Positions 25,718 to 39,027 of a stretch of DNA of 64,000 bases are shown here, in pieces. The notes beneath the pieces were generated by a model that saw only the letters and a list, made by a program, of their open reading frames with translations, made no database searches and was not told where the DNA came from. The translations under genes and the position numbers were made by a program. The stretch comes from a virus, in IMG/VR virus record IMGVR_UViG_3300008108_000118; one strand, written 5' to 3'. How positions within the stretch are numbered: the stretch's first letter is position 1; the number at the start of each line of letters is the position of its first letter.

Positions 25718-26787
25718 TGTTAGATATATTAGAAAAATATCACAATGATGGTCTGTTATTAAAACAGACACACCCAACATTACCTTTAACAATTTGGAAT
25801 TACTCACCAAAAGTTCAATATGATAACTTATGGGATGATGTTATTATTCAATGTAGAGGATTAGTTACCGATGTTGATGGTAATATTGTTGCTCGACCTT
25901 TTCCAAAATTTTTTAATTACGAAGAATTAAAACCCGAACAGATACCAAACGAACCATTTGATGTTTTTGAAAAATTAGATGGGTCTTTAGGTATATTATT
26001 TAATTATGAAGGTCAATGGGTATTTGCAACTCGTGGATCATTTACATCCGATCAAGCAAAAAGAGGATGGGAACTTCTTCAAAAATATGACTACCAAAGA
26101 TTAATTGAGGATAAAACATATCTATTTGAAATAATTTATAAAGAAAATCGTATTGTTGTTGATTATGATTATGAAGATCTAATAATGCTCGGTGTAATTG
26201 ACAATATCGATGGTTACGAATATAAAATATTTGACGAAAGAATCCATCTTGAAGGTGTTAGGTTCGTTAATATGTATAGAAATCTTGGATTTAAATTTGT
26301 TAAAAAATATGATGGTATAAAAGACTATTCAACCCTAAAAGAAATAATCAAAGATAATGAAGAGGGATTCGTTATTAGATTTCAAAATGGGTTTAGAATG
26401 AAAATAAAAGGTGTAGAATATTGTCGTCTCCATAAAATCCTAACAAACATCTCAAATAGAGATATTTGGGAATCTTTAAAAAATGGAGAATCATTAGATA
26501 AAATTATTGAAAAGGTACCCGATGAATTTTATAATTGGGTAAAAGAAACAAAAAATAAATTTGAGTCAGAATTTGATAAAATAAAAAAAGAATATGAATG
26601 GATATTCAAAGTTATTATGAGATCGGAAAATTCAAATGAAAGAAAAGTATTCGCACAATTTGCAATAAAATACAAATATTCTTCAATTCTATTTTCTATG
26701 TATGATAATAAACCATATAATCAAACAATATGGAAAATCCTATATCCTGAGTATTCGAAACCTTTTAAAAAAAATGATAATGAGTAA
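25717..26787 (+). CDS. RNA ligase (Rnl, nucleotidyltransferase superfamily)
   Basis: Motif I FEKLDGSLG (KxDG) and motif IV-like EGFVIRF are typical of T4 Rnl1/Rnl2-type ATP-dependent RNA ligases. Confidence 0.75.
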   Translation: MLDILEKYHNDGLLLKQTHPTLPLTIWNYSPKVQYDNLWDDVIIQCRGLVTDVDGNIVARPFPKFFNYEELKPEQIPNEPFDVFEKLDGSLGILFNYEGQWVFATRGSFTSDQAKRGWELLQKYDYQRLIEDKTYLFEIIYKENRIVVDYDYEDLIMLGVIDNIDGYEYKIFDERIHLEGVRFVNMYRNLGFKFVKKYDGIKDYSTLKEIIKDNEEGFVIRFQNGFRMKIKGVEYCRLHKILTNISNRDIWESLKNGESLDKIIEKVPDEFYNWVKETKNKFESEFDKIKKEYEWIFKVIMRSENSNERKVFAQFAIKYKYSSILFSMYDNKPYNQTIWKILYPEYSKPFKKNDNE

Positions 26788-29958: not shown

Positions 29959-30047
29959 GCCCCGGTGGTGGAACAGGTAGACACGCAGGACTTAAAATCC
30001 TGTGGACCGAAACGTCCGTGCGGGTTCGATTCCCGCCTGGGGCACCA
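29959..30047 (+). tRNA. tRNA-Leu (anticodon TAA), type II, CCA encoded
   Basis: GCCCCGG...acceptor, anticodon loop CTTAAAA, variable arm GGACCGAAACGTCC, T-arm GCGGGTTCGATTCCCGC, ends GGGGCACCA. Confidence 0.85.
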
Positions 30048-30084
30048 ATACTATCGTTCTTTGACATATAAGGAGAAACAAATT

Positions 30085-30450
30085 ATGGAAATACTTTTCT
30101 TTATTTTAGGAATTACTTCCGTGGTGGTTATTGCGACCGCAATAGTTGCTGTGGTAAGTATTGTTAAGGTAACAAAGTTACAAACAAAAGTTAAAGATGG
30201 TTTTGATGGTGTTTATCATTCAATTGATAATACACATACTTCCATCGATAACACAAAAAGAGATACTCACGATAACATCGGAAGATTAAATGAAGAAGTT
30301 AATCGTAGAGTTGATAACCTCGAAAGAGAAACCTTCTCACAGTTAGATTCTCGATTAGATAAGTTGGAAACGAAGTTAAAAACTTACGTTCACACTAATG
30401 CAACCATGATGAAACTTGCATTAGATACACATAAAGCAACATCAAAATAA
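30085..30450 (+). CDS. small membrane-anchored coiled-coil protein (121 aa)
   Basis: AGGAG SD 9 nt upstream. N-terminal TM helix (ILFFILGITSVVVIATAIVAVVSIV). Track ORF 29926.. overlaps tRNA-Leu and was trimmed. Confidence 0.55.
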   Translation: MEILFFILGITSVVVIATAIVAVVSIVKVTKLQTKVKDGFDGVYHSIDNTHTSIDNTKRDTHDNIGRLNEEVNRRVDNLERETFSQLDSRLDKLETKLKTYVHTNATMMKLALDTHKATSK

Positions 30451-30606
30451 AATAAAAGTCAAAAGAACGATAGTATTAAGGTTGAACGGGGAATGAAGAT
30501 TAAGACACCTGTTGGTGGTTGGTGATTATCTTCGGAGTTGGAACCAACATAGTAATGCCGTTCGTAAAAGAGGATGTCCACTCGACCATCTTCCTCTTTC
30601 CTTCTT

Positions 30607-30677
30607 GGTCTCATAGTTTAAGGGAAAAACGGTAGCCTTCTAAGCTTCTGATCCTAGTTCGAGTCTAGGTGAGACTA
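30607..30677 (+). tRNA. tRNA-Arg (anticodon TCT)
   Basis: GGTCTCA/TGAGACT acceptor (G1-U72), D-stem GTTT/AAAC, anticodon loop CTTCTAA, perfect T-arm CCTAG-TTCGAGT-CTAGG. Embedded in a GC-richer ORF-free region. Confidence 0.7.
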
Positions 30678-30898
30678 CAAAGTTCCTGTAGGCCGCGGGA
30701 TCGTAGTTCCTCTATTCCACTGACAAAAGTCAAGAAAAGAGCCAGATCGTAAGCTGGATGGGTTGACAACTTTCCCACTGACTCGGAAAAAAGTTGTAAA
30801 TTTTAAGCGGGTCCTCGCTTCCCACGGTTTAATAGTACAAGGATAATGAAGGGAATAATACGACCCCTAAGACCTGCTTTTATTAAAAAAAATAAAAT

Positions 30899-31330
30899 AT
30901 GAATTACAAATTAAAAGAAATGCCCGAAAAAGTATATTGGGCGGAAACAAAACAATTTACAGTTGAAAATGAAAATGGTGAAACATTTGATATTCGAATT
31001 GGTGAAAGTTCAAAATTTACTGAATATTGGATTTGGAAAGATCCGGGTGGATGGGAAGAAATTGATGATGATGATCTTATGGAGTATATAAATGAACAAT
31101 TTGCCGATGATGAATGGGAATTTGAACTTTCTGCACAAAAAGAAAGAGAAGAAAAAATGGATAAAATTATTGATGAATATATTAAAGAAAATGGTGATCA
31201 AATAAAAATAGATGAATTAGTGTCTAAAATAAGTAGAGAAAATCTATATCCACGAAATATCACATTTTACGAAGAGTTTTATCACAACTATCATTATGTC
31301 AATAAAAAAATAAAACAACTTAATAAATAA
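30899..31330 (+). CDS. hypothetical acidic protein, 143 aa
   Basis: ORF with AT-rich upstream region. No family recognised. Confidence 0.5.
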   Translation: MNYKLKEMPEKVYWAETKQFTVENENGETFDIRIGESSKFTEYWIWKDPGGWEEIDDDDLMEYINEQFADDEWEFELSAQKEREEKMDKIIDEYIKENGDQIKIDELVSKISRENLYPRNITFYEEFYHNYHYVNKKIKQLNK

Positions 31331-31332
31331 AA

Positions 31333-31536
31333 ATGGAAAATTATAGAAAAGTATTAATTTTTGTGATGTGTTTTTTGGTCACATTTATCGGTGGCATTAT
31401 TGTTACAGAATTATCCGCCTATCTTTTAACTTTACCAAATACAATTGCAAATATTTTTGGTTATATCATTTTAATCACTACCTTTGTATTGATCCTCTTA
31501 TTAGGACATAAATTAGTAAAATCTTTAAACAAATAA
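31333..31536 (+). CDS. small membrane protein (67 aa, 2 TM)
   Basis: Hydrophobic segments FVMCFLVTFIGGIIVT and IFGYIILITTFVLILLL. Confidence 0.45.
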   Translation: MENYRKVLIFVMCFLVTFIGGIIVTELSAYLLTLPNTIANIFGYIILITTFVLILLLGHKLVKSLNK

Positions 31537-31547
31537 AAAAAACAGTT

Positions 31548-32492
31548 ATGATTGGAATTATCACATTTACCTTATCGGTAGTAGTATTAGGAATTTTATT
31601 CGGAGTATTTAACTTCAAAAATTATTTGTCAGAACCTGACAAGTACAATAATACAAAAATAAAAGCGAGTGCAGTTATTAAAGCGGTTGTTGTGTTTATT
31701 GTATCTATTATCTTGGCAATCATCAATCCAATTTCAGTTGAACGAATTGATGTTGGACACGTAGGATTAAAAATCAACAACACCGGAGATGAAAAAGGTA
31801 TCAGTAAGACCACATATGTAACGGGTTGGGTGTTTTATAATAGTTGGTTATCTCGTATTAAGGAGTATCCCGTGACCCAACAACATGTAGATTACGAAGA
31901 AACCGCAATCATCACAAAAGGTGGGTTCCAAGCGGTAATTAAACCAAGTTTTAACTGGTCTGTGAATCCATCCAATGCCGCTGATATGTATCAAAATCTC
32001 AGACAAGATGTTGATCAGATTAAAGAAACTTGGTTGAAGAACGCTATTATAGGTGCCGTGAATGATGTTGCCAACTTATATAGTGTCGATTCAATTTTTA
32101 ATCATCGAGCCGAATTTGAATCTGACATTGTAAAAGAATGTAATTTAAGGGTTAGTAAATGGTTTAACGTATCTCAATTAAGAACAAATATTGTTCCTCC
32201 AAAAGAGATCACGGAAGCCATCAACCAAAAGACCAAGGCGGTTCAAGAAGCTCAAGCGGCTATCCAACAAAAGATCGTGGCCGAAGCTCAGGCTTTAACA
32301 CAGATCGCAAAGGCAAAAGGTGATAGTGCTCAAGCGGTGATTGCAGCATCCGGTAGGGCTGAAGCGGTGAGAAAAGAACAACAATACTTAACACCGATGT
32401 ATATTGAGTATATTAGAGCACAAAGATGGGATGGTAAGTATCCACAAACAATGCTCGGTTCTGGTGGAAATGTGTTGTTAAATTTGAAATAG
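31548..32492 (+). CDS. SPFH/band-7 (stomatin/prohibitin/HflKC-like) membrane protein
   Basis: N-terminal TM followed by IDVGHVGLKIN ... VTGWVFYNSW ... and a coiled-coil Ala/Gln-rich C-region. Typical SPFH architecture. Confidence 0.65.
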   Translation: MIGIITFTLSVVVLGILFGVFNFKNYLSEPDKYNNTKIKASAVIKAVVVFIVSIILAIINPISVERIDVGHVGLKINNTGDEKGISKTTYVTGWVFYNSWLSRIKEYPVTQQHVDYEETAIITKGGFQAVIKPSFNWSVNPSNAADMYQNLRQDVDQIKETWLKNAIIGAVNDVANLYSVDSIFNHRAEFESDIVKECNLRVSKWFNVSQLRTNIVPPKEITEAINQKTKAVQEAQAAIQQKIVAEAQALTQIAKAKGDSAQAVIAASGRAEAVRKEQQYLTPMYIEYIRAQRWDGKYPQTMLGSGGNVLLNLK

Positions 32493-32499
32493 AATATTA

Positions 32500-32704
32500 A
32501 GTCAGGTGGCGGAATAGAATGTAATGATGATTTGGACGATTAGTCGACACGTAATCACGTGACTATTTCTATCCTTATCAGATGTTGAATCATCGAATCT
32601 TACATTCTTTGGTAGACGATAATCACGGAAACCTAATGAGGTAGAGAACGCAAGTGAGAGGTATCTGCGGATACCGTACGGGTTCGAATCCTGTCCTGAC
32701 TACA
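32500..32704 (+). ncRNA. tRNA-like RNA with ~130-nt internal insertion (perfect 7-bp acceptor stem plus canonical T-arm)
   Basis: 5' AGTCAGG pairs with 3' CCTGACT (then A, CA). T-arm ACGGG-TTCGAAT-CCTGT. Internal 9-bp inverted repeat AGAATGTAA/TTACATTCT encloses the insertion. No ORF. Confidence 0.45.
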
Positions 32705-32716
32705 ATTTTGATATTT

Positions 32717-33277
32717 ATGGGAATGTTAAGAAAAATAAAATATTGGTTTGAATACGAAGGAAGATATCTTCACAAAGATTTTATTAAAGGTGTAAAAAAT
32801 CTGTGGAAATGGTTTCCAACTATTTGGAAAGATAGAGAACATGACTATCATTTTATTTTAGTTCTTCTTGAAAAGAAACTTAATTTTCAATCAAAATATA
32901 TTGGTTATAAAAATAGACATTCAGAAGCAACTAGAGATTCTGAACGTATGATGACATGTGTTCGTCTTATACAAAAAATAAAAGAAGATTACTATAATAC
33001 GGAATATGTGGATTATCAAAAAAGTGAATTTCATTTTGATCCCATTCCCGATAGACCTACCCACAAACAACTTCGTATTGAGGAAATTTCAGATAATTTT
33101 GATGATTATTTTAAAATATATCCTCGTATCTATAAAAAAGTTTTTAATGAACTTGATGTGGATCAAAGAAACTCAAAAAGAATTATTGCTATTCGTATGA
33201 GTTGGGAAAATCACAACAGAGCAAAAAAACTTTTATTTAAAATGATGGAAAATCATATCGAGTCTTGGTGGGATTGA
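32717..33277 (+). CDS. hypothetical protein, 186 aa (Trp/Tyr-rich)
   Basis: Track ORF 32654.. overlaps the tRNA-like element. Start moved to the in-frame ATG at 32717. Confidence 0.5.
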   Translation: MGMLRKIKYWFEYEGRYLHKDFIKGVKNLWKWFPTIWKDREHDYHFILVLLEKKLNFQSKYIGYKNRHSEATRDSERMMTCVRLIQKIKEDYYNTEYVDYQKSEFHFDPIPDRPTHKQLRIEEISDNFDDYFKIYPRIYKKVFNELDVDQRNSKRIIAIRMSWENHNRAKKLLFKMMENHIESWWD

Positions 33278-33314
33278 TTTTTTTTCTTATATTATATAAA
33301 ATAAAACATAAATT

Positions 33315-33500
33315 ATGAAATGTATCAAATCAATTAAGTCAACTAAAAACACCGAAATCGGGGTAATTAAAAGAATTGACGACAAAGAAGCAGAATCAAT
33401 GGTTAAATCAGGTTATTGGAAATATGTTCCTAAATCTGAATTTAAAATTAAAAAAGTAAAAGAAGATGAAACATTAAGGGAACAATATCCCGCCAATTAA
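33315..33500 (+). CDS. small hypothetical protein, 61 aa
   Basis: Short basic ORF. Weak. Confidence 0.3.
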   Translation: MKCIKSIKSTKNTEIGVIKRIDDKEAESMVKSGYWKYVPKSEFKIKKVKEDETLREQYPAN

Positions 33501-33697
33501 AAAAAATAATAAAAAAGTTTCGAAATAATTTTTTTATTATTTCAAATTTACATATATTTGCATATATTTATAAGACAATGACAAACTTGTTTAACATACT
33601 AACGATAGAGAATACACCAAATAATGGTGGTGGGTATGATGTGCCAGTATACAAACAAGTTCGGAGTTAAAAAAATTTATTAAAACAAAATAAACAT

Positions 33698-33730
33698 AAA
33701 CCCGAACACAAAAAGTTCGGGTTTTTTTTG
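33698..33730 (+). terminator. intrinsic terminator (ACCCGAAC-ACAAAAA-GTTCGGGT plus T8) 20 nt upstream of tRNA array 1
   Basis: 8-bp stem followed by a T-run. Confidence 0.6.
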
Positions 33731-33751
33731 TTAATAGATCTTTGAAATAAT

Positions 33752-33825
33752 CGGGATGTAGTTCAGTCCGGTAGAATGCTTGGTTTGGGACCAAGATGTC
33801 GTAGGTTCGAATCCTGCCATCCCGA
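33752..33825 (+). tRNA. tRNA-Pro (TGG)
   Basis: Acceptor CGGGATG/CATCCCG, anticodon loop TTTGGGA, T-arm GTAGGTTCGAATCCTGC. Confidence 0.8.
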
Positions 33826-33831
33826 CATAAT

Positions 33832-33903
33832 GTCTTCTTAGCTCAACGGTAGAGCAATTGGCTGTTAACCAATAGGTTTTAGGTTCGAATCCTAAAGAGG
33901 ACG
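33832..33903 (+). tRNA. tRNA-Asn (GTT)
   Basis: Acceptor GTCTTCT/AGAGGAC, anticodon loop CTGTTAA, T-loop TTCGAAT. Confidence 0.8.
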
Positions 33904-33908
33904 CAATC

Positions 33909-33990
33909 GCCCCGATGGTGGAATTGGTAGTCACGGCAGACTTAGGATCTGTTGCCTTATGGTGTGAGAGTTCGAGTCTCTCTTGGGGTA
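33909..33990 (+). tRNA. tRNA-Leu (TAG), type II
   Basis: Anticodon loop CTTAGGA, long variable arm, T-arm GAGAG-TTCGAGT-CTCTC. Confidence 0.75.
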
Positions 33991-33999
33991 CATTAAATT

Positions 34000-34072
34000 G
34001 GCCGATTAGTTCAGCAGGTTAGAATGCGTGACTTGTAATCATGAGACGACAGTTCGATTCTGTCATTGGCCT
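34000..34072 (+). tRNA. tRNA-Thr (TGT)
   Basis: Acceptor GGCCGAT/ATTGGCC, anticodon loop CTTGTAA, T-loop TTCGATT. Confidence 0.8.
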
Positions 34073-34077
34073 CATAA

Positions 34078-34151
34078 GCGGATTTCGCCTAGTTGGCATG
34101 GCACCACACTTCCACTGTGGAATAGGGTCGGTTCGAGACCGTCAATCCGCT
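34078..34151 (+). tRNA. tRNA-Gly (TCC)
   Basis: Acceptor GCGGATT/AATCCGC, anticodon stem CCACA/TGTGG with loop CTTCCAC. Confidence 0.8.
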
Positions 34152-34197
34152 CAGAATTTTTTTTATTCAAATATATTTTGTATGTTTGAATTTGTAA

Positions 34198-34280
34198 GGT
34201 GTAGTTGAGCAATTGGTTGGCTCGCCGGACTGTAAATCCGGTCCCTTCGGGGCTTGTAGGTTCGAGTCCTACCTACACCA
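34198..34280 (+). tRNA. tRNA-Tyr (GTA), type II
   Basis: Acceptor GGTGTAG/CTACACC, anticodon loop CTGTAAA, variable arm TCCCTTCGGGGCT. Confidence 0.8.
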
Positions 34281-34286
34281 CAAATT

Positions 34287-34358
34287 GCCGCTGTCGTCTA
34301 ACGGTTAGGACGCGTCCCTTTCACGGACAAAATGCGAGTTCGATTCTCGTCGGTGGTA
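34287..34358 (+). tRNA. tRNA-Glu (TTC)
   Basis: D-region TCGTCTAACGGTTAGGACG is typical of tRNA-Glu. Anticodon loop CTTTCAC. G-U-rich acceptor stem. Confidence 0.7.
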
Positions 34359-34363
34359 CGATT

Positions 34364-34435
34364 GGTCTCATAGTTAATCGGCTATAATATTGCCCTGTCA
34401 CGGCAAAGTGCCGGGTTCGATTCCCGGTGGGACCG
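34364..34435 (+). tRNA. tRNA-Asp (GTC)
   Basis: Acceptor GGTCTCA/TGGGACC, anticodon stem TTGCC/GGCAA with loop CTGTCAC. Confidence 0.8.
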
Positions 34436-34591
34436 CAAACTTCAGGAGTAATTAACCTGAAGATGGAAGGTTCGAAACTTTCGATTGGCTATGGTGTAAT
34501 GGGCACACTGGTCCCGTGATTGGCTCGGTTATCGTCGAGTTTCAGTCGGGACCGGGGGATTCAGGTTCAATTCCTGATTGGTCAGCAAAAT
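34436..34591 (+). other. tRNA-like remnants/unresolved structured RNA (T-arm-like GAAGG-TTCGAAA-CTTTC; hairpin CTTCAGG-N9-CCTGAAG; second T-arm TCAGG-TTCAATT-CCTGA; GGTCCCG/CGGGACC inverted repeat)
   Basis: Contains two canonical-looking T-arms, but no acceptor stem can be paired for either. Could be tRNA pseudogenes or a noncanonical/intron-bearing tRNA. Confidence 0.3.
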
Positions 34592-34665
34592 GGACCCTTA
34601 GCTCAGTAGGTTAGAGCAAATGACTCATAATCATTAGGTGCACGGTTCGAGCCCGTGAGGGTCCA
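34592..34665 (+). tRNA. tRNA-Met (CAT) (elongator Met or lysidine-Ile type)
   Basis: Acceptor GGACCCT/AGGGTCC, anticodon loop CTCATAA, T-arm CACGGTTCGAGCCCGTG. Confidence 0.8.
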
Positions 34666-34670
34666 CATTT

Positions 34671-34742
34671 AGTCCTTTAGCTTAGTGGGAAAGCGGTTGT
34701 CTTACATGCAACATAGAGTGTGTTCGATTCACACAGGGACTA
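34671..34742 (+). tRNA. tRNA-Val (TAC)
   Basis: Acceptor AGTCCTT/AGGGACT, anticodon stem GTTGT/GCAAC with loop CTTACAT. Confidence 0.75.
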
Positions 34743-34850
34743 CCCCCGATATGTATGTGTAAGCAAGAAGCATATCATCAGTTGGGATCTTACAGTCCAC
34801 GAACTGGGGTCCGGTGGGAACCGGGATGAGAGTACCCGAACCTCTCAAAC
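34743..34850 (+). other. unresolved ~108-nt spacer with hairpins (GATATG...CATATC; CCGGTGGGAACCGG), possible degenerate tRNA
   Basis: No canonical cloverleaf could be built on either strand. Confidence 0.25.
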
Positions 34851-34922
34851 GCAGATATAGCACAATGGTTAGTGTTCGGCCTTGCCAAGGCTGAGATGCC
34901 AGTTCGAATCTGACTATCTGCT
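34851..34922 (+). tRNA. tRNA-Gly (GCC)
   Basis: Acceptor GCAGATA/TATCTGC, anticodon region CCTTGCCAAGG, T-arm GCCAGTTCGAATCTGAC. Confidence 0.8.
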
Positions 34923-34923
34923 C

Positions 34924-35078
34924 AAATTGTACTGTGGTGAAATTGGCAGACACCCCCACTCGTCTCGTGGGCGTCGACAACGAAATAGGTAAATGGATAA
35001 GGGTTGACCACAAGCTAGCTAGCATATTTGTCCTTTACCGAATCGCGACATAGACGGTTCGAATCCTCTCGGTACAGC
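34924..35078 (+). other. ~150-nt tRNA-like element (acceptor-like TGTACTG/CGGTACA pairing, anticodon-like CCCAC-TCGTCTC-GTGGG, TTCGAAT T-loop with poorly paired stem); possible intron-containing or pseudo tRNA
   Basis: The termini pair like an acceptor stem, but the body is too long and the T-stem is mismatched. Confidence 0.3.
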
Positions 35079-35106
35079 ATATATTTTTGACAAATAAAAA
35101 TAGTTT

Positions 35107-35346
35107 ATGACGATCTTAATCGGCATCAATGAATTAGAAGAAGAATTTCAAATACCGTGGAAGATGGGATTAGTTAATCATTTGGTCATTGATTACGCAG
35201 ACAACGCAATCTATGGTACATTTGAGAAAAAAGAAGTAATTATTTTTAGGTTCAAAAAATATGGTTGGGTTTGTGATAATAGATACAATTTATACACACT
35301 ATCAAGTGGTGAGGCAGGTATCATGATTAACATGAATTCAACATAA
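35107..35346 (+). CDS. hypothetical protein, 79 aa
   Basis: Short ORF between the tRNA arrays. Confidence 0.4.
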   Translation: MTILIGINELEEEFQIPWKMGLVNHLVIDYADNAIYGTFEKKEVIIFRFKKYGWVCDNRYNLYTLSSGEAGIMINMNST

Positions 35347-35370
35347 AATATTTATTAATAACAACATGTT

Positions 35371-35832
35371 ATGAGAAAATTTAAAACATTATTCGGAATT
35401 GAGATTGATAATCTTGCTGAATATATTAAAGAATATATTTCAACAAGAGAAAATGTGGAGATATTAGTTGGCGCCGATTCTCAAAATTATAGTAATAGAA
35501 AAACTATATATGGAGTTGTTATTGCCTTATACACAAAAGGTAAAGGTGCACATGTTTTGTGTTCAAGAGATACTGTTCCAATTGAGAGAAACACATCAAC
35601 CAGATTACTTACTGAAGTTTGGAAATCAATTGAGACCGCAGAATTTTTAAAAGAAAATGGTTTACCAAAACCATTATGGATTGATATTGACTTAAATCCT
35701 GATCCGAAATTTAAATCAAATACCGTATTAAGACAAGCGGTTGGTCTTGTTGAAGGTATGGGTTATCAAGTTAGATATAAACAATTAGGTGCTATGGTAA
35801 CATACGCCGCAAATCACTTAGTTAGAAATTAA
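35371..35832 (+). CDS. RNase H-fold DUF458/YkuK-like protein, putative
   Basis: ILVGADSQ ... IYGVVIALYTKGKGAHVL resembles the IGTDSQ..GG.A.FVT.IV....GKGA core of the YkuK family. Recalled from memory only. Confidence 0.4.
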   Translation: MRKFKTLFGIEIDNLAEYIKEYISTRENVEILVGADSQNYSNRKTIYGVVIALYTKGKGAHVLCSRDTVPIERNTSTRLLTEVWKSIETAEFLKENGLPKPLWIDIDLNPDPKFKSNTVLRQAVGLVEGMGYQVRYKQLGAMVTYAANHLVRN

Positions 35833-35844
35833 ATTATACTTTTC

Positions 35845-35875
35845 TTTGTTTTTACAATATTTATTATTATCTTTG
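35845..35875 (+). promoter_or_regulatory. sigmaA-type promoter TTTG-N19-TATCTTTG
   Basis: -33 at 35845-48 and -7 at 35868-75. Drives a ~170-nt unit that ends at the terminator at 36027-36062. Confidence 0.5.
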
Positions 35876-35904
35876 TAAAACAAAAGATTAAAAAAATAAA
35901 TTCG

Positions 35905-36006
35905 ATGAAACAGTTCAAACATATTATGTCGTTTATTAGTTGTTCAAAATGGGCAAGTCAGCGTCATATCCGTATGTCCCGATCTGTTTGTATGAATTTG
36001 TGTTAA
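35905..36006 (+). CDS. possible small Cys-rich peptide (33 aa, MKQFKHIMSFISCSKWASQRHIRMSRSVCMNLC) or sRNA
   Basis: Only ORF within the promoter-to-terminator unit 35876-36062. Confidence 0.2.
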   Translation: MKQFKHIMSFISCSKWASQRHIRMSRSVCMNLC

Positions 36007-36026
36007 AATATTTTAATAAGTAATTC

Positions 36027-36062
36027 AAAAAAACCTCGGGACAAAATCTCGAGGTTTTTTGT
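36027..36062 (+). terminator. intrinsic terminator (ACCTCG-N11-CGAGGT plus T6)
   Basis: A-tract, hairpin, T-tract. Confidence 0.65.
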
Positions 36063-36067
36063 TTTAT

Positions 36068-36140
36068 GGGCTGTCATGTTCCAAGGCTGGCGAAGGACCC
36101 TTGCAAGGTCTTTGGGAGATTTCGATTATCTCACGGTCCA
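36068..36140 (+). tRNA. putative tRNA-Ala (TGC), weak D-arm
   Basis: Acceptor GGGCTGT/ACGGTCC (two G-U pairs), anticodon stem GGACC/GGTCT with loop CTTGCAA, perfect T-arm GAGAT-TTCGATT-ATCTC. D-stem pairs poorly. Confidence 0.4.
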
Positions 36141-36146
36141 CATAAT

Positions 36147-36220
36147 GTTCGGGTAGATCAATTGGTGAGATCATTCGCCTGATACGCGAAAGGTTGTAGG
36201 TTCGAGTCCTACTCCGAACA
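36147..36220 (+). tRNA. tRNA-Ile (GAT)
   Basis: Anticodon stem TTCGC/GCGAA with loop CTGATAC. T-arm GTAGGTTCGAGTCCTAC. Confidence 0.8.
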
Positions 36221-36225
36221 CGAAT

Positions 36226-36298
36226 GGTACACAAGCTAACTTAGTAGAAGCATTGGACTGAAAATCCAAGGGACTTGGAGCGTAACCAAGGTGTACCA
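36226..36298 (+). tRNA. tRNA-Phe (GAA)-like with noncanonical T-loop (AGCGTAA)
   Basis: Perfect acceptor GGTACAC/GTGTACC. Anticodon stem TTGGA/TCCAA with loop CTGAAAA. T-stem CTTGG/CCAAG, but the loop lacks the TTCRANY signature. Confidence 0.5.
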
Positions 36299-36307
36299 CA
36301 AACATAT

Positions 36308-36381
36308 TCCCTCGTAACTCAATTGGCTAGAGTACCACACTTTTAATGTGGGAGTTTCGAGTTCGAATCTCGACGGGGGAA
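36308..36381 (+). tRNA. tRNA-Lys (TTT)
   Basis: U1-A72 start. D-stem ACTC/GAGT. Anticodon stem CCACA/TGTGG with loop CTTTTAA. T-arm TCGAG-TTCGAAT-CTCGA. Confidence 0.75.
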
Positions 36382-36385
36382 CAAT

Positions 36386-36456
36386 GGTCGGATGGCCGAG
36401 TGGATTAGGTGGAGGTCTGCAAAACCTCTTACGTCAGTTCGATTCTGACTCCGACC
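36386..36456 (+). tRNA. tRNA-Cys (GCA)
   Basis: Acceptor GGTCGGA/TCCGACC. Anticodon stem GAGGT/ACCTC with loop CTGCAAA. T-arm GTCAG-TTCGATT-CTGAC. Confidence 0.8.
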
Positions 36457-36463
36457 TCAAATA

Positions 36464-36536
36464 CACGGGTGTGGTGAAATTGGTTATCATTTCGGTCTCC
36501 AAAACCGACGTTTCAGATTCGAATTCTGACATCCGT
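36464..36536 (+). tRNA. tRNA-Trp (CCA)
   Basis: Acceptor ACGGGTG/CATCCGT. Anticodon stem TCGGT/ACCGA with loop CTCCAAA. T-arm TCAGA-TTCGAAT-TCTGA. Confidence 0.8.
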
Positions 36537-36540
36537 GCAA

Positions 36541-36613
36541 TGGTTCTATGGTGTAATGGATTAGCACACGAAGCTACGGACTTCGGAGTTTGGGTTCGAG
36601 TCCTAATAGAACC
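36541..36613 (+). tRNA. tRNA-Arg (ACG)
   Basis: Acceptor GGTTCTA/TAGAACC. Anticodon stem CGAAG/CTTCG with loop CTACGGA. Confidence 0.8.
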
Positions 36614-36618
36614 ACATA

Positions 36619-36691
36619 TTGTTCCGTGATGTAATGGTTAGCATACAAGAATTTGACTCTTGTAGTATAGGTTCGAGTCCTATCGGAACAT
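36619..36691 (+). tRNA. tRNA-Gln (TTG)
   Basis: U1-A72 acceptor TGTTCCG/CGGAACA. Anticodon stem CAAGA/TCTTG with loop ATTTGAC. Confidence 0.75.
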
Positions 36692-36697
36692 CATAAA

Positions 36698-36780
36698 GGA
36701 GAGGTCGTATAGTGGTTTAGTACAGTAGTCTTGAAAACTACCGAGTTTAGGCTCCGTGGGTTCGAATCCCACCCTCTCCG
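36698..36780 (+). tRNA. tRNA-Ser (TGA), type II
   Basis: Acceptor GGAGAGG/CCTCTCC. Anticodon loop CTTGAAA. Long variable arm. Confidence 0.8.
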
Positions 36781-36785
36781 CATAT

Positions 36786-36864
36786 GGTGGCCTGAGATGG
36801 GTTGGTTACATCGTCAGATTGTGGCTCTGAAGAACACGGGTTCGACTCCCGTAGGTCACACCAA
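36786..36864 (+). tRNA. tRNA-His (GTG) with extra 5' G(-1), CCA encoded
   Basis: G-1 precedes acceptor GTGGCCT/AGGTCAC. Anticodon stem TCAGA/TCTGA with loop TTGTGGC. Confidence 0.75.
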
Positions 36865-36867
36865 AAG

Positions 36868-36955
36868 GAGAGTAAACTACGACGGTGAGTAGACATGCCT
36901 GCTAAGCATTGTGTTCGTTAATTCGGATGAGGTTCGATCCCTCTACTCTCCGCCA
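36868..36955 (+). tRNA. tRNA-Ser (GCT), type II, CCA encoded
   Basis: Acceptor GGAGAGT/ACTCTCC. Anticodon loop CTGCTAA. Long variable arm. T-arm GAGG-TTCGATC-CCTC. Confidence 0.75.
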
Positions 36956-36958
36956 AAT

Positions 36959-37031
36959 GCCGTGGGTTAGTGGAATACGACTATCTCTCATAAGGATGGA
37001 GAACACAGTTCGAACCTGTGCTACGGTACCA
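36959..37031 (+). tRNA. tRNA-Met/Ile2 (CAT) with short D-loop, CCA encoded
   Basis: T-arm CACAG-TTCGAAC-CTGTG. Anticodon stem TATCT/GGATG (2 G-U) with loop CTCATAA. G-U-containing acceptor stem. Confidence 0.55.
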
Positions 37032-37051
37032 AAAAAAAGTTTTAAAAAGAT

Positions 37052-37082
37052 TTTGTATTTTAAAAAAGTATTTATATCTTTG
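37052..37082 (+). promoter_or_regulatory. sigmaA-type promoter TTTG-N19-TATCTTTG upstream of the initiator-like tRNA
   Basis: -33 at 37052-55 and -7 at 37075-82, 18 nt before the tRNA 5' end. Confidence 0.5.
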
Positions 37083-37100
37083 TAAAAGTTCTTTAAACAT

Positions 37101-37172
37101 CGTGGCGTGGAGAAGTGGTATCTCACTAGGCTCATAACCTAGGGACCGTTGGTTCGAATCCAACCGCCGCAA
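37101..37172 (+). tRNA. initiator-like tRNA-fMet (CAT) with unpaired C1-A72
   Basis: The C1-A72 mismatch is the bacterial initiator hallmark. D-stem GAGA/TCTC. Anticodon stem CTAGG/CCTAG with loop CTCATAA. T-arm GTTGG-TTCGAAT-CCAAC. Confidence 0.65.
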
Positions 37173-37192
37173 CAAAAAAGTTTTAAAAAGAT

Positions 37193-37329: not shown

Positions 37330-38214
37330 ATAAAGTTCTTTGAAAATATTGGGCGGTCTATAGTCCATAAAATAAACCATGAAAGTGGTATAAAGTGGAA
37401 TACCTTGGTTTTGGTATTCTGCGGCTTGGGTAACCGAGCTCGAGTAGACAAACGAGATATCGTCTGACCTTTAGTACTGAGGGTAACACTGTAGGGAAAG
37501 TGGTTGGGCGATCAAGCGATGTGGGTCGTTTGGTTGAGGTGGGAACACCAATAAGAATAACTCGTAGAATTATTGCAAGAAATGTTGTTATCCGACTTCA
37601 TAATTGCGTTTTTCAATATTATGGTTGTCTTAAAACCGAAAGGTATGTTAGTGTACAGGTGGTGCTGTTATTAACCTTAACCTTAGCCTACCAAGGCATG
37701 AGTTATGAAGATGAGCAAAAATATGGAGGTGGGGACATCTCAGAGGGTAGTTTAGTATTTAGCCGTTCAAAAGATGGCTGAGCTGGTGACGAACCACTAC
37801 CTTCACAATCCACAAACCAATAACTTGCATCCATTTAATTGCAAAATTAATAAATCAAGGAAAAGTGTTCGTCAGTTGTGGATGACAGGTCACTACATAG
37901 TCATGAGTTGTTCATGGCCATGAAGGGTCCCAAGCCCAACATGATTTTCACCAAAGTTCTCTAATCTCGCAAGGATTAATTGGGGTGGCAACCTCGAAGA
38001 GTGATGAGTAATGAGAGAGTGATTCACAACTTAAGGATTGGTTAATCTAATTGACCGTGACTGATTATTACTACTCAAAAGGTAGTGGATAAGGGAAGAA
38101 TCAATAATGTCCCAAAGATAATCACCCGAACGTGTAATCTCAGCGTTTTATTTTCCTGATTTTTATAAAATCATGGTGGTGGAGTAATAAAAAGATTTCA
38201 TGCCGCAAGGCCCC
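37330..38214 (+). ncRNA. candidate large structured noncoding RNA (~0.9 kb, GC-richer than flanks, no credible ORF), bounded by the tandem promoters and the terminator at 38215-38244
   Basis: No ORF over 93 aa in any frame inside a genome that is otherwise about 90% coding. Base composition shifts to GC-rich. Many local inverted repeats. Defined promoter and terminator. Adjacent to tRNA arrays. Confidence 0.4.
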
Positions 38215-38274: not shown

Positions 38275-39027
38275 ATGAGATTAATTTGTATATCAGACAC
38301 ACATTCTTTACATGAAAGAATGACACATAAAGTTGAAAAATATATCGATCCTGATCAAGACAATATACTCATCCATGCGGGGGATTGTACTAATATGGGT
38401 AGAGAACCTGAAATTATTGAATTTGTTTATTGGTATCAAAATTTAAAAGGATTTGATACCAAGATCTTTATTGCGGGTAATCATGATTTTGGTTTTGAAC
38501 ATTATAATGGTCTTCGTCATAGTAATGAGGCACCTTGGTTACATCATATAATAAATGAGGAGAATTTATCTCAATCAGATGTCGTTTATCTTCATGATTC
38601 TGAATTTGTAATTGAACATCCGAAATTTTCAAGACCAATTAAATTTTATGGAAGTCCTTGGCAACCTGAATTTTATAATTGGGCATTTAATCTTCCAAGA
38701 AATGGTTGGGAGTTAGAACTTAAATGGAAAGAAATACCAGATGATACTGATATATTGATCACACACGGACCTCCACATGGTTGTAGAGATTTTACACCAC
38801 AAAATTTACAAGTTGGTTGTGAATTGTTGAGATATAGATTAGATACATTAAAACCACTTGTCCATGTGTTTGGACATATTCATCATGCATATGGTGGTGC
38901 ATATATTGATGATGTTTTATACATTAACGCATCAACATGTACAGAAAGATATGTCCCACGTAATAGACCTATTGTTGTTGATTTAAAAGAAGAAGATGGT
39001 AAAATAGTTACTACCTATATTGATTAA
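38275..39027 (+). CDS. calcineurin-like metallophosphoesterase
   Basis: Motifs DTH, GDCTN (GD), GNHD and GHIHH match the MPP superfamily signature D-x-H...GD...GNH[DE]...H...GH-x-H. Confidence 0.85.
   Translation: MRLICISDTHSLHERMTHKVEKYIDPDQDNILIHAGDCTNMGREPEIIEFVYWYQNLKGFDTKIFIAGNHDFGFEHYNGLRHSNEAPWLHHIINEENLSQSDVVYLHDSEFVIEHPKFSRPIKFYGSPWQPEFYNWAFNLPRNGWELELKWKEIPDDTDILITHGPPHGCRDFTPQNLQVGCELLRYRLDTLKPLVHVFGHIHHAYGGAYIDDVLYINASTCTERYVPRNRPIVVDLKEEDGKIVTTYID

What the first reader, a model, noticed from the sequence alone, without database searches (positions are those of the whole stretch)
32500..32716. tRNA-like RNA with perfect acceptor/T-arm but a ~130-nt internal insertion
The 5' AGTCAGG pairs perfectly with the 3' CCTGACT, followed by an A discriminator. 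The 3' part carries a canonical T-arm (ACGGG-TTCGAAT-CCTGT). Between them lie about 130 nt. The insertion begins right after a D-arm-like GGTGGCGGAAT segment and is enclosed by a 9-bp inverted repeat (AGAATGTAA ... TTACATTCT). This looks like either a tRNA gene interrupted by a small intron or insertion, or a second tmRNA-like or tRNA-mimic RNA. It is far too short to carry a group I intron core. The downstream protein gene appears to start immediately after it, at 32717.
Basis: seen in the sequence. Interest (0 to 1): 0.65.

Follow-up and report, generated by a model that had tools for sequence, protein, structure and literature searches.

The report
Phage tRNA-Leu-like RNA with extra domains
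This is a real 203-base tRNA-shaped RNA gene in an uncultured phage: one member of a large, apparently undescribed family in which a conserved leucine-tRNA "chassis" carries swappable extra RNA domains where the anticodon arm should be and, in this copy, also in the D-loop.

Summary
Window 32500-32702 (+) has a perfect 7-bp acceptor stem, a canonical T-arm, a discriminator A, and a tRNA-Leu-type D-arm. The D-arm is split by a 93-nt insert (32516-32608) closed by a perfect 9-bp stem.

It is not a canonical tRNA, a tmRNA or a group I intron host. ARAGORN and Rfam do not call it.

A related phage contig (L003) carries the same gene without the insert. That 109-nt version still lacks a normal anticodon arm and scores only 30.6 bits on Rfam's tRNA model.

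The exact 3' end recurs in more than 120 IMG/VR contigs, with up to 7 copies per contig. I collected 190 distinct copies of 68-258 nt. They share the acceptor stem, T-arm and D-arm and the leucyl-tRNA synthetase (LeuRS) identity positions. Their middles are unrelated to one another.

The same D-loop site holds other structured modules that are present or absent between otherwise identical genes.

Best reading: a non-decoding, tRNA-Leu-derived scaffold RNA, probably cut out by RNase P and RNase Z, that carries modular domains shuffled by recombination. Its function is unknown. I found no description of the family in Rfam 15, in GenBank phage records, or in seven full-text literature searches.

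The parts
32500..32506 (+). Acceptor stem, 5' strand (AGUCAGG)
   Evidence: 7/7 Watson-Crick pairs with 32695-32701. Identical in 173 family copies. Relatives show compensatory variants: GGTCAGG/CCTGACC, TGTCAGG/CCTGACA, TGTAAGG/CCTTACA and AGCCAAG/CTTGGCT.
32507..32515 (+). U8, G9, D-stem 5' strand GCGG (32509-32512), and A14 A15 U16
   Evidence: Matches the family consensus TGGCGGAAT, a tRNA-Leu-type D-arm. Family frequencies are U8 97%, G9 91%, A14 88% and A15 87%.
32516..32608 (+). 93-nt insert in the D-loop (between positions 16 and 17). It forms a rod- or Y-shaped hairpin closed by a 9-bp stem (32516-24/32600-08). A possible second 7-bp stem lies at 32526-32/32588-94. An alternative short hairpin is GAUG-UUGAAU-CAUC at 32581-32594.
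   Evidence: Absent from the ortholog L003:11227-11335. Inverted repeats confirmed. Folds alone at -24.1 kcal/mol with z = -2.13. No other copy in the window, in 2 Mb of related loci, or in IMG/VR by two exact probes. Not matched by the covariance model of the conserved D-loop module.
32609..32619 (+). Rest of the D-loop (UUGGUAGA, with G18 G19 at 32611-32612) and D-stem 3' strand (CGA, 32617-32619; G10-A25 is a mismatch)
   Evidence: Matches the family consensus TTGGTAGACGC except for the last base.
32620..32659 (+). Non-canonical domain that replaces the anticodon arm. A 4-bp stem UCAC/GUGA (32623-26/32655-58) encloses 28 nt, including the hairpin ACCU-AAUG-AGGU (32631-32642).
   Evidence: Fold. 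One mismatch in 65 nt against L003, compared with 72-84% identity in flanking DNA. Rfam's tRNA model treats this stretch as an unaligned 51-nt insert in the ortholog.
32660..32677 (+). Variable-arm-like hairpin GGUAUC-UGCG-GAUACC (32660-32675), followed by G and U48 (32677)
   Evidence: Fold. The family has U at this position in 84% of copies.
32678..32694 (+). T-arm ACGGG-UUCGAAU-CCUGU
   Evidence: The T-loop UUCGAAU occurs in 87% of family copies.
32695..32702 (+). Acceptor stem 3' strand CCUGACU and discriminator A73. No CCA is encoded; the next bases are CAA.
   Evidence: A73 occurs in 174 of 190 family copies.
32717..33277 (+). Downstream protein gene (186 aa, no Pfam domain). It starts 14 nt after the RNA. 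It is not part of the RNA but defines the RNA's position inside an operon.
   Evidence: Homolog alignments begin at residue 24-43 of the longer 32654 ORF in most loci. No Pfam hit.
31548..32492 (+). Upstream SPFH/Band-7 gene. It ends 7 nt before the RNA and was used as the anchor to find related loci.
   Evidence: Pfam PF01145, E = 7e-23. 33 related loci found.

Best explanation
The locus encodes a non-decoding, tRNA-Leu-derived scaffold RNA of about 203 nt, or about 206 nt after CCA addition.

It belongs to a large family found in uncultured freshwater phages whose hosts are probably Bacteroidota. The family keeps a near-invariant tRNA 'top half plus elbow'. This comprises the acceptor AGUCAGG/CCUGACU, the T-arm, a Leu-type D-arm, U8, A14, A15, G18G19, U48 and A73. 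The anticodon and variable-arm region is replaced by a different structured domain in almost every lineage.

A second insertion point, D-loop position 16/17, can hold a further hairpin module. The window copy carries a unique 93-nt module there.

Shown here:
- Family membership.
- The insertion polymorphism.
- The modular, recombining architecture.
- The absence of a canonical anticodon arm.

Inferred:
- The RNA is transcribed within the operon SPFH gene - RNA - ORF.
- It is released by host RNase P at its 5' end and RNase Z at its 3' end. Both enzymes need only the conserved parts.
- It then receives CCA and accumulates as a stable L-shaped RNA that displays its extra domains.
- Excision also separates the flanking mRNAs.
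- Because the conserved positions coincide with the bacterial LeuRS identity set, it may also be leucylated.

What the cargo domains bind or do is unknown.
For: 1. tRNA-like ends and D-arm are verified.

2. The insert-free ortholog passes Rfam's tRNA threshold only through its acceptor, D-arm and T-arm: 30.6 bits against a gathering score of 29, with the anticodon arm skipped.

I collected 190 unique copies of 68-258 nt, up to 7 per contig.

4. ARAGORN calls only 32 of 190, with motley or unnatural anticodons. In intron mode it gives scattered anticodons and scattered intron sites.

5. Scaffold conservation is U8 97%, A14 88%, A15 87%, U48 84% and A73 92%. The D-stem covaries, for example GCG/CGC, GUG/CAC, GCA/UGC, GCU/AGC. 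The acceptor stem covaries in relatives.

6. The conserved positions are those reported as the bacterial tRNA-Leu identity set. The anticodon arm is reported to be dispensable for leucylation (PMC2377443).

7. The middles are unrelated to each other: 147 of 190 are singletons by clustering. Even so, they look constrained.
- The window and L003 copies are 97.8% identical over 92 nt, against 72-84% in flanking DNA.
- Middles are more stable than shuffled controls, mean z = -0.58, p about 1e-11.
- A few compensatory changes occur within subfamilies.

8. The same D-loop site hosts a conserved 56-73-nt module. In that module 7 of 15 pairs show compensatory changes. The module is present or absent between genes with identical middles, as in L180 versus L184/L186. 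L188, L125 and L200 share a middle but differ in D-loop state.

9. Copies are packed between ORFs. In 31% of copies an ORF starts within 30 nt downstream, against 7% for random positions.

10. The phage already has a full decoding set, including tRNA-Leu(UAA) and tRNA-Leu(UAG).
Against: - There is no expression, processing or aminoacylation data.
- The window subfamily has only two alleles, so its own middle and its 93-nt insert cannot be tested by covariation.
- The window copy has a G10-A25 mismatch in the D-stem, and the large D-loop insert might disrupt the elbow. This particular copy could therefore be inactive.
- The full 204-nt fold is not significantly more stable than shuffles (z = -1.43).
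- The invariance of the acceptor and T-arm is partly an ascertainment effect, because I searched with that sequence.
- High identity to L003 could reflect recent transfer or gene conversion rather than selection.
- No shared motif, antisense target or linked protein was found that would name a function.
Confidence: 0.55

Rival explanations
1. Intron-containing tRNA. The insert, and perhaps part of the anticodon region, is removed at the RNA level and the halves are rejoined to give a functional tRNA-Leu. The rejoining enzyme could be the phage's T4 Rnl1-like RNA ligase at 25717-26787. RNase P, RNase Z or RNase III cuts would leave 3'-OH and 5'-P ends that such a ligase can join.
For: - The insert sits exactly between consensus D-loop halves. 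Deleting it restores GCGGAAU-UUGGUAGACGA.
- It is closed by a perfect 9-bp stem.
- An Rnl1-type ligase is encoded about 6 kb upstream.
- A few family members are canonical tRNA-Leu: 8 ARAGORN calls with anticodons taa, caa or tag.
- L003 has two other tRNAs with 24-26-nt hairpins inside the anticodon loop.
Against: - Removing the insert yields about 110 nt with a 27-nt 'anticodon loop' that begins GG. The natural insert-free allele is not a canonical tRNA either.
- ARAGORN's intron mode finds nothing at default stringency, and only a poor 'Gln' model at relaxed stringency.
- Across the family the implied anticodons and intron positions are scattered.
- There is no bulge-helix-bulge motif and no group I core.
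- The phage already encodes two tRNA-Leu genes.
Confidence: 0.07
2. Decaying pseudogene. A duplicated phage tRNA-Leu gene has been wrecked by an insertion and by drift, and has no function at the RNA level.
For: - D-stem mismatch G10-A25, and a unique 93-nt insert with no relatives.
- The full-length fold has z = -1.43 only.
- Not called by standard tRNA finders.
- Possible partial internal duplication of the D-arm/anticodon-stem region inside the insert (p about 0.02).
Against: - The 3' 92 nt are the best-conserved segment between the window and L003, 97.8% against 72-84% elsewhere.
- The ends remain perfectly paired.
- The family keeps its scaffold positions and shows covariation in hundreds of copies.
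- The identical D-loop site carries structured, covarying modules in other members.
- The insert is closed by a perfect stem and folds better than 197 of 200 shuffles.
Confidence: 0.15
3. Pure processing signal ('tRNA punctuation'). Only the RNase P/RNase Z recognition surface matters. The element exists to cut the SPFH-ORF polycistronic mRNA, and the internal domains are filler.
For: - The element lies 7 nt after the upstream stop and 14 nt before the next start codon.
- 31% of family copies have an ORF start within 30 nt downstream and an ORF end within 30 nt upstream.
- The conserved parts are exactly those needed by RNase P and RNase Z. This rests on general knowledge of those enzymes.
Against: - Filler should drift, yet the middle is 98% conserved between the window and L003.
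- Subfamilies keep helices through compensatory changes.
- Ordinary tRNAs would serve equally well as punctuation.
- A73, A15 and U48 are conserved beyond what RNase P needs.
- This rival overlaps with the best explanation rather than excluding it.
Confidence: 0.15
4. DNA-level element. The conserved 25-30-bp ends act as portable homology or recombination sites that shuffle small gene cassettes between phages. The RNA fold would be incidental.
For: - The window copy sits at the SPFH-adjacent site but carries the middle of the L003 copy that lies after tRNA-Val, so the element has relocated.
- 5' parts (D-loop state) and middles occur in different combinations.
- In L003, tRNA-like elements alternate with small ORFs.
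Against: - Recombination explains the shuffling but not the conservation of tRNA tertiary-interaction positions, the T-loop, or the covariation in the acceptor and D-stems.
- No recombinase is consistently linked. The best protein cluster occurs in 14 of 153 loci.
Confidence: 0.06
5. A second tmRNA or a tmRNA-like trans-translation RNA.
For: - A tRNA-like acceptor/T-arm pair with a long internal region.
- A 7-bit Rfam tmRNA match to the T-arm only.
Against: - ARAGORN's tmRNA mode finds nothing.
- No tag ORF, no pseudoknots and no G3:U70.
- The D-arm is a full tRNA-Leu D-arm rather than the reduced tmRNA D-loop.
- A bona fide tmRNA lies at 39351-39743 (86.8 bits).
Confidence: 0.02

Closest known systems
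Bacterial class II tRNA-Leu (Rfam RF00005)
   Same: 7-bp acceptor stem, U8, a Leu-type D-arm (GCGGAAUUGGUAGACGC), G18G19, U48, T-arm UUCGAAU and A73. This is the reported LeuRS identity set (PMC2377443). A variable-arm-like hairpin precedes the T-arm. A few family members are canonical tRNA-Leu(UAA/CAA/UAG).
   Different: There is no 5-bp anticodon stem with a 7-nt loop. A 93-nt domain sits in the D-loop. The length is 203 nt. ARAGORN and Rfam do not detect it in the window.
tmRNA tRNA-like domain
   Same: The acceptor and T-arm are formed by the two ends of a longer RNA, with a large internal region.
   Different: No mRNA-like tag, no pseudoknots and no alanine identity (G3:U70). It has a complete D-arm and is much shorter. 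The phage has its own separate tmRNA.
Engineered 'tRNA scaffold' for recombinant RNA expression (Ponchon and Dardel approach; see PMC3753655, listed)
   Same: The anticodon arm of a tRNA is replaced by an arbitrary structured RNA. The tRNA body provides folding, processing and nuclease resistance. The family looks like a natural version of this design.
   Different: That system is synthetic. Here the chassis is natural, phage-encoded and multi-copy, and it has a second insertion site in the D-loop. That the tRNA body gives processing and stability here is inferred, not shown.
Viral and cellular tRNA-like processing modules: MHV68 vtRNA/TMER, mascRNA of MALAT1, bacterial YrlA (from my own knowledge; the Rfam models for mascRNA and YrlA give only chance-level hits)
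   Same: tRNA-shaped modules recognised by RNase P and RNase Z (and the CCA-adding enzyme) that do not decode.
   Different: In those RNAs the tRNA-like part is a complete small cloverleaf next to, or inside, another RNA. Here the extra domains are inserted within the tRNA fold. There is no sequence or covariance-model similarity.
Archaeal tRNA introns at non-canonical positions, and rRNA intervening sequences removed by RNase III (from my own knowledge; review PMC4090602, listed)
   Same: A helix-closed insertion at an exposed loop of a structured RNA. D-loop positions are known intron sites in archaea.
   Different: No bulge-helix-bulge motif. The host is bacterial and has no known splicing endonuclease. 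Excision is untested.
Phage T4 'species 1 and 2' stable RNAs in the tRNA cluster (from my own knowledge; not tested)
   Same: Small stable RNAs of unknown function encoded among phage tRNA genes and matured by the tRNA-processing enzymes.
   Different: No sequence relationship was examined. The T4 RNAs are single-copy, not a hypervariable family.

Membership tests
Canonical tRNA (RF00005 / ARAGORN) | 7-bp acceptor stem plus discriminator | tested here: met
   32500-06 pairs with 32695-01 at 7/7, and A73 is at 32702.
Canonical tRNA (RF00005 / ARAGORN) | T-arm with a UUCRANY loop | tested here: met
   ACGGG-UUCGAAU-CCUGU at 32678-32694.
Canonical tRNA (RF00005 / ARAGORN) | Contiguous D-arm with a 7-11-nt loop containing G18G19 | tested here: not met
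   Both D-arm halves are present, but they are separated by a 93-nt insert, and G10-A25 is a mismatch.
Canonical tRNA (RF00005 / ARAGORN) | 5-bp anticodon stem with a 7-nt loop (Y32 U33 NNN R37) | tested here: not met
   A 4-bp stem encloses 28 nt that begin GG. In the ortholog, Rfam leaves the arm unaligned.
Canonical tRNA (RF00005 / ARAGORN) | Score above the curated threshold | tested here: not met
   No RF00005 hit at the locus even at E <= 10. ARAGORN default and intron modes give none. The insert-free ortholog scores 30.6 bits against a gathering score of 29.
tmRNA (RF00023) | Tag-peptide reading frame with resume codon, pseudoknots, and G3:U70 alanine identity | tested here: not met
   ARAGORN -m finds nothing. 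The Rfam match is 7.2 bits over the T-arm only. Pair 3-70 is U-A.
Group I intron in a tRNA gene | Catalytic core P3-P9 (>= ~200 nt), inserted in the anticodon loop | tested here: not met
   The insert is 93 nt and lies in the D-loop. No intron family appears in the Rfam scan at E <= 10.
Archaeal/eukaryal-type protein-spliced tRNA intron | Bulge-helix-bulge motif at the exon-intron junctions, and a canonical tRNA after removal | tested here: not met
   The junctions lie at the base of a continuous 9-bp helix with no 3-nt bulges. The product would be a ~110-nt non-canonical RNA.
AGUCAGG-type tRNA-Leu-like scaffold family (defined here) | Acceptor AGUCAGG/CCUGACU, T-arm RCRGG-UUCGAAU-CCUGU, A73 | tested here: met
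   Exact match. The T-stem variant ACGGG is seen in 4 other copies.
AGUCAGG-type tRNA-Leu-like scaffold family (defined here) | Leu-type D-arm UGGCGGAAU...UUGGUAGACGC, with U8, A14, A15 and U48 | tested here: met
   All are present at 32507-15, 32609-19 and 32677.
AGUCAGG-type tRNA-Leu-like scaffold family (defined here) | A lineage-specific non-anticodon domain between the D-arm and the T-arm | tested here: met
   The domain at 32620-32676 is shared only with L003, L172, L173 and L175.
Conserved D-loop module (nested minihelix, model R1) | Outer stem, 7-bp inner stem flanked by CAA and UCAAUG, and a T-arm-like hairpin 5' of the inner 3' strand | tested here: not met
   cmsearch with R1 and filters off gives no hit at 32516-32608 at E <= 10. 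Only the insertion site and the closing-stem architecture are shared.
Leucylatable tRNA-Leu mimic | Aminoacylation by LeuRS (identity: A73, U8-A14, A15-U48, G18-U55, G19-C56; anticodon arm dispensable) | not testable with these tools
   The identity nucleotides are present in the sequence (PMC2377443). The effect of the D-loop insert on the elbow is unknown, and charging needs an experiment.
MITE or other multi-copy mobile insertion (for the 93-nt insert) | Terminal inverted repeats, a target-site duplication, and multiple copies | tested here: not met
   A 9-bp inverted repeat is present, but there is no target-site duplication. No second copy occurs in the window, in 2 Mb of loci, or in IMG/VR by exact probes.

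The most novel reading that the evidence does not exclude
Freshwater phages maintain a natural 'tRNA scaffold' system. A single leucine-tRNA chassis has two defined insertion ports: D-loop 16/17 and the anticodon/variable-arm position. Through these ports hundreds of different structured RNA domains are displayed. Recombination between the shared ends shuffles these domains within and between genomes.

The chassis would supply RNase P and RNase Z maturation, CCA addition and possibly leucylation. The cargo domains would act as rapidly evolving effectors, for example decoys or aptamers for host factors or defence systems.

The recurrent D-loop module is itself a nested acceptor/T-arm minihelix. 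It could be cut out by the same enzymes, giving split or re-ligated RNAs, and the phage encodes an Rnl1-type ligase.
Probability: 0.25. Interest if true: 0.85.

Novelty: new variant of a known kind. Interest (0 to 1): 0.68.

Why it matters
tRNA-shaped non-decoding RNAs are known: tmRNA, YrlA, viral tRNA-like structures and vtRNAs. I could not find any description of a family like this one. It is multi-copy and phage-borne. One tRNA-Leu chassis is kept almost invariant while the anticodon arm is replaced by hundreds of unrelated structured domains, and a second domain can be plugged into the D-loop.

If these RNAs are processed and stable, they would be a natural counterpart of the engineered tRNA scaffold. 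They would also be a new class of phage small RNAs and a possible reservoir of RNA aptamers or decoys.

If they are leucylated, they would be charged tRNA mimics with no codon, which raises questions about non-ribosomal uses of Leu-tRNA.

Practically, standard tRNA finders either miss these genes or mis-call them with odd anticodons such as AAU, AAA, AUA or four-base anticodons. This can mislead analyses of phage tRNA repertoires and of code reassignment.

Tried and rejected
1. Standard detectors. ARAGORN in default, intron and tmRNA modes finds nothing. Only a poor 'tRNA-Gln with a 112-nt intron' appears at relaxed score. Rfam shows nothing at the locus at gathering threshold or at E <= 10, apart from chance-level hits.

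2. GenBank phages. There is no match to the locus or to a typical family member beyond generic T-arms.

3. More alleles of the window's own subfamily. Exact probes in IMG/VR and JGI metagenomes return only the L003-type allele. Probes for the 93-nt insert return nothing. Covariation of the window-specific parts therefore could not be tested.

4. Homology of the insert to the conserved D-loop module. I built covariance model R1, and it gives no hit.

5. MAFFT alignment of the insert with the modules was meaningless.

6. Consistent intron model across the family. ARAGORN -i gives scattered anticodons and positions.

7. Antisense or captured-fragment idea. The middles have no sense or antisense matches outside family members in 2 Mb of related phage DNA or within the window.

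8. Shared motif in the middles. None was found beyond shifted D-arm and T-loop-like fragments.

9. Guilt by association. No protein cluster is linked to more than 14 of 153 loci.

10. Translation of the region as the N-terminus of the 32654 ORF is rejected by the homolog alignments.

11. Literature. Seven full-text searches found no description of such a family. The closest is a general mention of tRNA-like candidates in IMG/VR (PMC10690425).
Full report
**1. What is in the sequence**

Window 32500-32702 on the + strand reads as follows:
- AGTCAGG (acceptor 5' strand)
- TG
- GCGG AAT
- a 93-nt insert, 32516-32608
- TTGGTAGA CGA
- T AATCAC...GTGAGA
- GGTATC TGCG GATACC
- GT
- ACGGG TTCGAAT CCTGT (T-arm)
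- CCTGACT (acceptor 3' strand)
- A (discriminator)

The repeat finder confirms three features. The acceptor pairing at 32500-06/32695-01 is 7 bp and perfect. The 9-bp perfect inverted repeat that closes the insert lies at 32516-24/32600-08. A further 7-bp repeat inside the insert lies at 32526-32/32588-94. The 22-nt 3' end occurs once in the window, against none in 100 shuffles.

The RNA sits 7 nt after the stop codon of an SPFH/Band-7 gene (31548-32492) and 14 nt before ATG 32717. Homologs of the downstream protein in 13 other loci mostly align only from residue 24-43 of the longer GTG-started ORF. The RNA is therefore not translated.

**2. Standard tools do not recognise it**

ARAGORN finds 23 tRNAs in the window, but not this one. 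Its intron and tmRNA modes find nothing at default stringency. At relaxed stringency it offers only an implausible tRNA-Gln with a 112-nt intron.

Rfam 15 reports a GOLLD RNA, a tmRNA and the tRNAs. It reports nothing at this locus at gathering threshold. At E <= 10 there are only chance-level hits, including a 7-bit tmRNA match that covers the T-arm only.

GenBank phage records contain nothing similar.

**3. The insert is a real insertion polymorphism**

I used the upstream SPFH protein as an anchor and retrieved 33 related IMG/VR loci. In L003, positions 11227-11335 carry the same gene without the insert. The 5' end and the 3' 92 nt (97.8% identical) abut directly there. Metagenome and virome probes recover only this allele, as L172, L173 and L175.

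The insert-free RNA is 109 nt. Rfam's tRNA model scores it 30.6 bits against a gathering score of 29. The model aligns only the acceptor stem, D-arm and T-arm, and it treats the whole anticodon arm as a 51-nt unaligned stretch. Removing the insert therefore does not produce a normal tRNA. The 'anticodon' region is a 4-bp stem enclosing 27-28 nt, with an internal ACCU-AAUG-AGGU hairpin. It is followed by a 6-bp variable-arm-like hairpin.

**4. It belongs to a very large family**

L003 alone has seven genes with the same acceptor stem and T-arm but unrelated middles. It also occurs in 18 metagenome-assembled genome (MAG) contigs from GTDB, mostly Bacteroidota: Chitinophagia, Sediminibacterium, Flavobacterium and Saprospirales.

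From these loci I extracted 200 oriented copies, 190 of them unique. Lengths run continuously from 68 to 258 nt, with up to seven copies per contig.

Scaffold positions are strongly conserved:

| Position | Base | Frequency |
|---|---|---|
| 8 | U | 97% |
| 9 | G | 91% |
| 14 | A | 88% |
| 15 | A | 87% |
| 48 | U | 84% |
| 73 | A | 92% |
| T-loop | UUCGAAU | 87% |

A D-arm with three base pairs and GG in the loop is found in 150 of 190 copies. Its stem covaries, for example GCG/CGC, GUG/CAC, GCA/UGC, GCU/AGC and GAU/AUC.

An unbiased scan for T-arm plus acceptor pairing in the same loci shows that long forms (>= 95 nt) are concentrated in this lineage: 101 of 173 copies, against 28 of 227 for all other acceptors. 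Most of those 28 are near variants of the same acceptor stem. They include compensatory ones: GGTCAGG/CCTGACC, TGTCAGG/CCTGACA, TGTAAGG/CCTTACA and AGCCAAG/CTTGGCT. The helices are therefore under selection at the RNA level.

**5. They are not decoders**

ARAGORN calls only 32 of the 190. Eight are tRNA-Leu. The rest carry odd anticodons such as AAU, AAA, AUA, AGG and ACC, or anticodons of two or four bases. In intron mode it, with anticodons and intron positions scattered across the code. That is what a permissive search on non-tRNA middles would be expected to give.

The window phage already has a complete decoding set, including tRNA-Leu(UAA) and tRNA-Leu(UAG). At relaxed threshold it also has Ala(UGC), Ser(GCU) and a third CAU tRNA.

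**6. The middles are diverse but not junk**

- Clustering leaves 147 of 190 as singletons.
- They share no motif beyond fragments of shifted D-arms and extra T-loop-like hairpins.
- They have no sense or antisense matches elsewhere in 2 Mb of related phage DNA.
- They are on average more stable than dinucleotide shuffles: mean z = -0.58 over 161 copies, p about 1e-11.
- Small subfamilies keep their helices through a few compensatory changes.
- The window and L003 copies are the best-conserved stretch between the two genomes: 97.8%, against 82.5% for the SPFH gene and 72-84% for other aligned segments. The only exception is a 96%-identical tRNA-Val.

**7. The D-loop is a second insertion port**

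I searched for the window's flanks separated by 70-100 nt and found ten contigs with a 70-73-nt module at exactly the same site, after GCGGAAU and before UUGGUAGACG. Further variants of 56-69 nt exist.

The module has three parts:
- an outer stem that covaries;
- a 7-bp inner stem flanked by CAA and UCAAUG;
- a T-arm-like hairpin (ACGG-UUCGAAU-CCGU) directly 5' of the inner 3' strand.

In other words, it is a nested acceptor/T-arm minihelix. RNAalifold finds 15 pairs, 7 of them with compensatory changes. A search for the module core alone finds it only inside D-loops of this family. The other hits are GC-rich coding sequence and look like chance matches.

The module is polymorphic between otherwise identical genes:
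- L180:1934-2066 lacks it, while L184 and L186 carry it with a 100% identical middle.
- L188 (module), L125 (no module) and L200 (a different 31-nt insert) share one middle.
- L182 and L139 share a middle but carry different modules.

The window/L003 pair is a further example of this pattern.

The window's insert is not a detectable homolog of the module. A covariance model built from 14 modules gives no hit there, even with filters off and E <= 10. It shares only the site and the general design of a closing stem, a second stem and an internal hairpin. On its own it folds at -24.1 kcal/mol with z = -2.13.

**8. Recombination**

In L003 the SPFH-adjacent site holds two other family members, and the window-type gene lies 5.5 kb away, after tRNA-Val. 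In the window that latter site is empty, and the SPFH-adjacent site holds the chimeric gene.

Near the junction the window's D-arm (GGTAGACGA) differs from L003's (GATAGACGT), whereas everything 3' of it is nearly identical. The simplest account is gene conversion or unequal crossing-over between paralogs through their shared 16-30-nt ends. The same process would explain the combinatorial pairing of D-loop states with middles. This is inference.

**9. How it probably works**

The parts that are conserved are the acceptor/T-arm stack, the D-loop/T-loop elbow and the discriminator. General knowledge holds that these suffice for RNase P, RNase Z and the CCA-adding enzyme.

They also coincide with the reported bacterial tRNA-Leu identity set: A73, U8-A14, A15-U48, G18-U55 and G19-C56. 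For leucylation the anticodon arm is reported to be dispensable. Deleting it cost only 2.5-fold in affinity (PMC2377443).

The element lies inside an operon with almost no spacer. Across the family, 31% of copies have an ORF start within 30 nt downstream, against 7% for random positions.

I therefore favour the following sequence of events:
- The RNA is excised from the polycistronic transcript by RNase P and RNase Z. This also separates the flanking mRNAs.
- It receives CCA and persists as an L-shaped RNA that displays one or two extra domains.
- It may be charged with leucine.

The function of the displayed domains is unknown. Their diversity and turnover would fit an arms-race role, but nothing here tests that.

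The window copy could itself be impaired by its D-stem mismatch and its large insert. Its high conservation, and the fact that the same site tolerates modules elsewhere, argue against that, though not decisively.

**10. Context and host**

The window is a phage tRNA island:

| Feature | Coordinates |
|---|---|
| tRNA genes | 29959-37173 |
| GOLLD RNA | 37743-38146 |
| tmRNA | 39351-39743 |
| T4 Rnl1-like RNA ligase | 25717-26787 |
| Metallophosphoesterase | 38275-39027 |

Repeated TTTG...TAnnTTTG promoter-like blocks, the lack of Shine-Dalgarno sequences and the MAG hits all point to Bacteroidota hosts. The promoter consensus is from my own knowledge.

**11. Novelty**

Rfam 15 has no family for these RNAs other than partial tRNA matches. 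They are absent from GenBank phage records. Seven full-text searches found no description. One survey mentions unspecified tRNA-like candidates in IMG/VR (PMC10690425).

I classify it as a new variant of a known kind, namely tRNA-derived non-decoding RNAs. Some chance remains that it is a new modular RNA system.

Noticed in passing
window 37743-38146 (+): GOLLD RNA 3' conserved domain (338.5 bits, E = 2e-96). It lies downstream of the tRNA island and of repeated promoter-like blocks. The variable 5' domain probably starts near 37340.
   Followed up: partly
window 39351-39743 (+): Phage-encoded tmRNA (Rfam 86.8 bits) ending in CCA. ARAGORN did not list it in its default window scan, although it did call the tmRNA in the related locus L006.
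   Followed up: no
window 36068-36141, 36867-36955, 36959-37031 (+): Three further non-canonical tRNAs that default ARAGORN and Rfam gathering thresholds miss. One is Ala(UGC) with an aberrant D-arm. One is Ser(GCU) with an 8-bp acceptor stem and a tRNA-Sec-like fold (Rfam tRNA-Sec 38 bits, gathering score 47). One is a third CAU tRNA with encoded CCA. They complete the phage's amino-acid set.
   Followed up: partly
window 34440-34590 (+): Between tRNA-Asp and tRNA-Met lie two T-loop-like hairpins (GGAAGGTTCGAAACTTTC and TTCAGGTTCAATTCCTGA) with possible acceptor pairings. Relaxed ARAGORN calls a 95-nt 'tRNA-Asn'. This looks like another degenerate or chimeric tRNA-like element.
   Followed up: no
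window 25717-26787 (+) and 38275-39027 (+): A T4 Rnl1-type RNA ligase (PF09511, E = 2e-20) and a calcineurin-like metallophosphoesterase flank the RNA island. They could form a tRNA repair or ligation system.
   Followed up: no
window 35868, 37075, 37216, 37305 (+): Repeated blocks AAAAAGTTTTAAAAAGATTTTGT...TATCTTTGTAAAA. They match the TTTG/TAnnTTTG pattern typical of Bacteroidota promoters, and each precedes an RNA gene or the GOLLD region.
   Followed up: partly
L003 2227-2339 and 2537-2632: Two tRNAs, Leu(UAA)-like and Arg(UCU)-like (the latter scores 56 bits on Rfam's tRNA model), carry 26- and 24-nt hairpin insertions inside the anticodon loop that extend the anticodon stem. They resemble short protein-spliced introns. 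ARAGORN does not call them.
   Followed up: partly
L003 4000-4130, 4290-4470, 5845-5900, 11338-11443: GC-rich stretches that look structured lie between the tRNA-like genes. The last one is 72% identical to window 34738-34849. They may be further unannotated RNAs.
   Followed up: no
window 32530-32559 versus 32607-32627: The 5' part of the insert (TTTGGACGAT...TAATCACG) weakly resembles the D-arm/anticodon-stem region just downstream (TTTGGTAGACGATAATCACG). 21 of 1000 shuffles score as well, so a partial internal duplication is possible.
   Followed up: partly
L065 3721-3807, L162 2961-3078, L094 13264-13355, L091 2111-2231: Several family members carry extra T-arm-like hairpins (GGTTCGATYCC) inside their middle domains. 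This suggests nested or chimeric tRNA pieces beyond the D-loop module.
   Followed up: no
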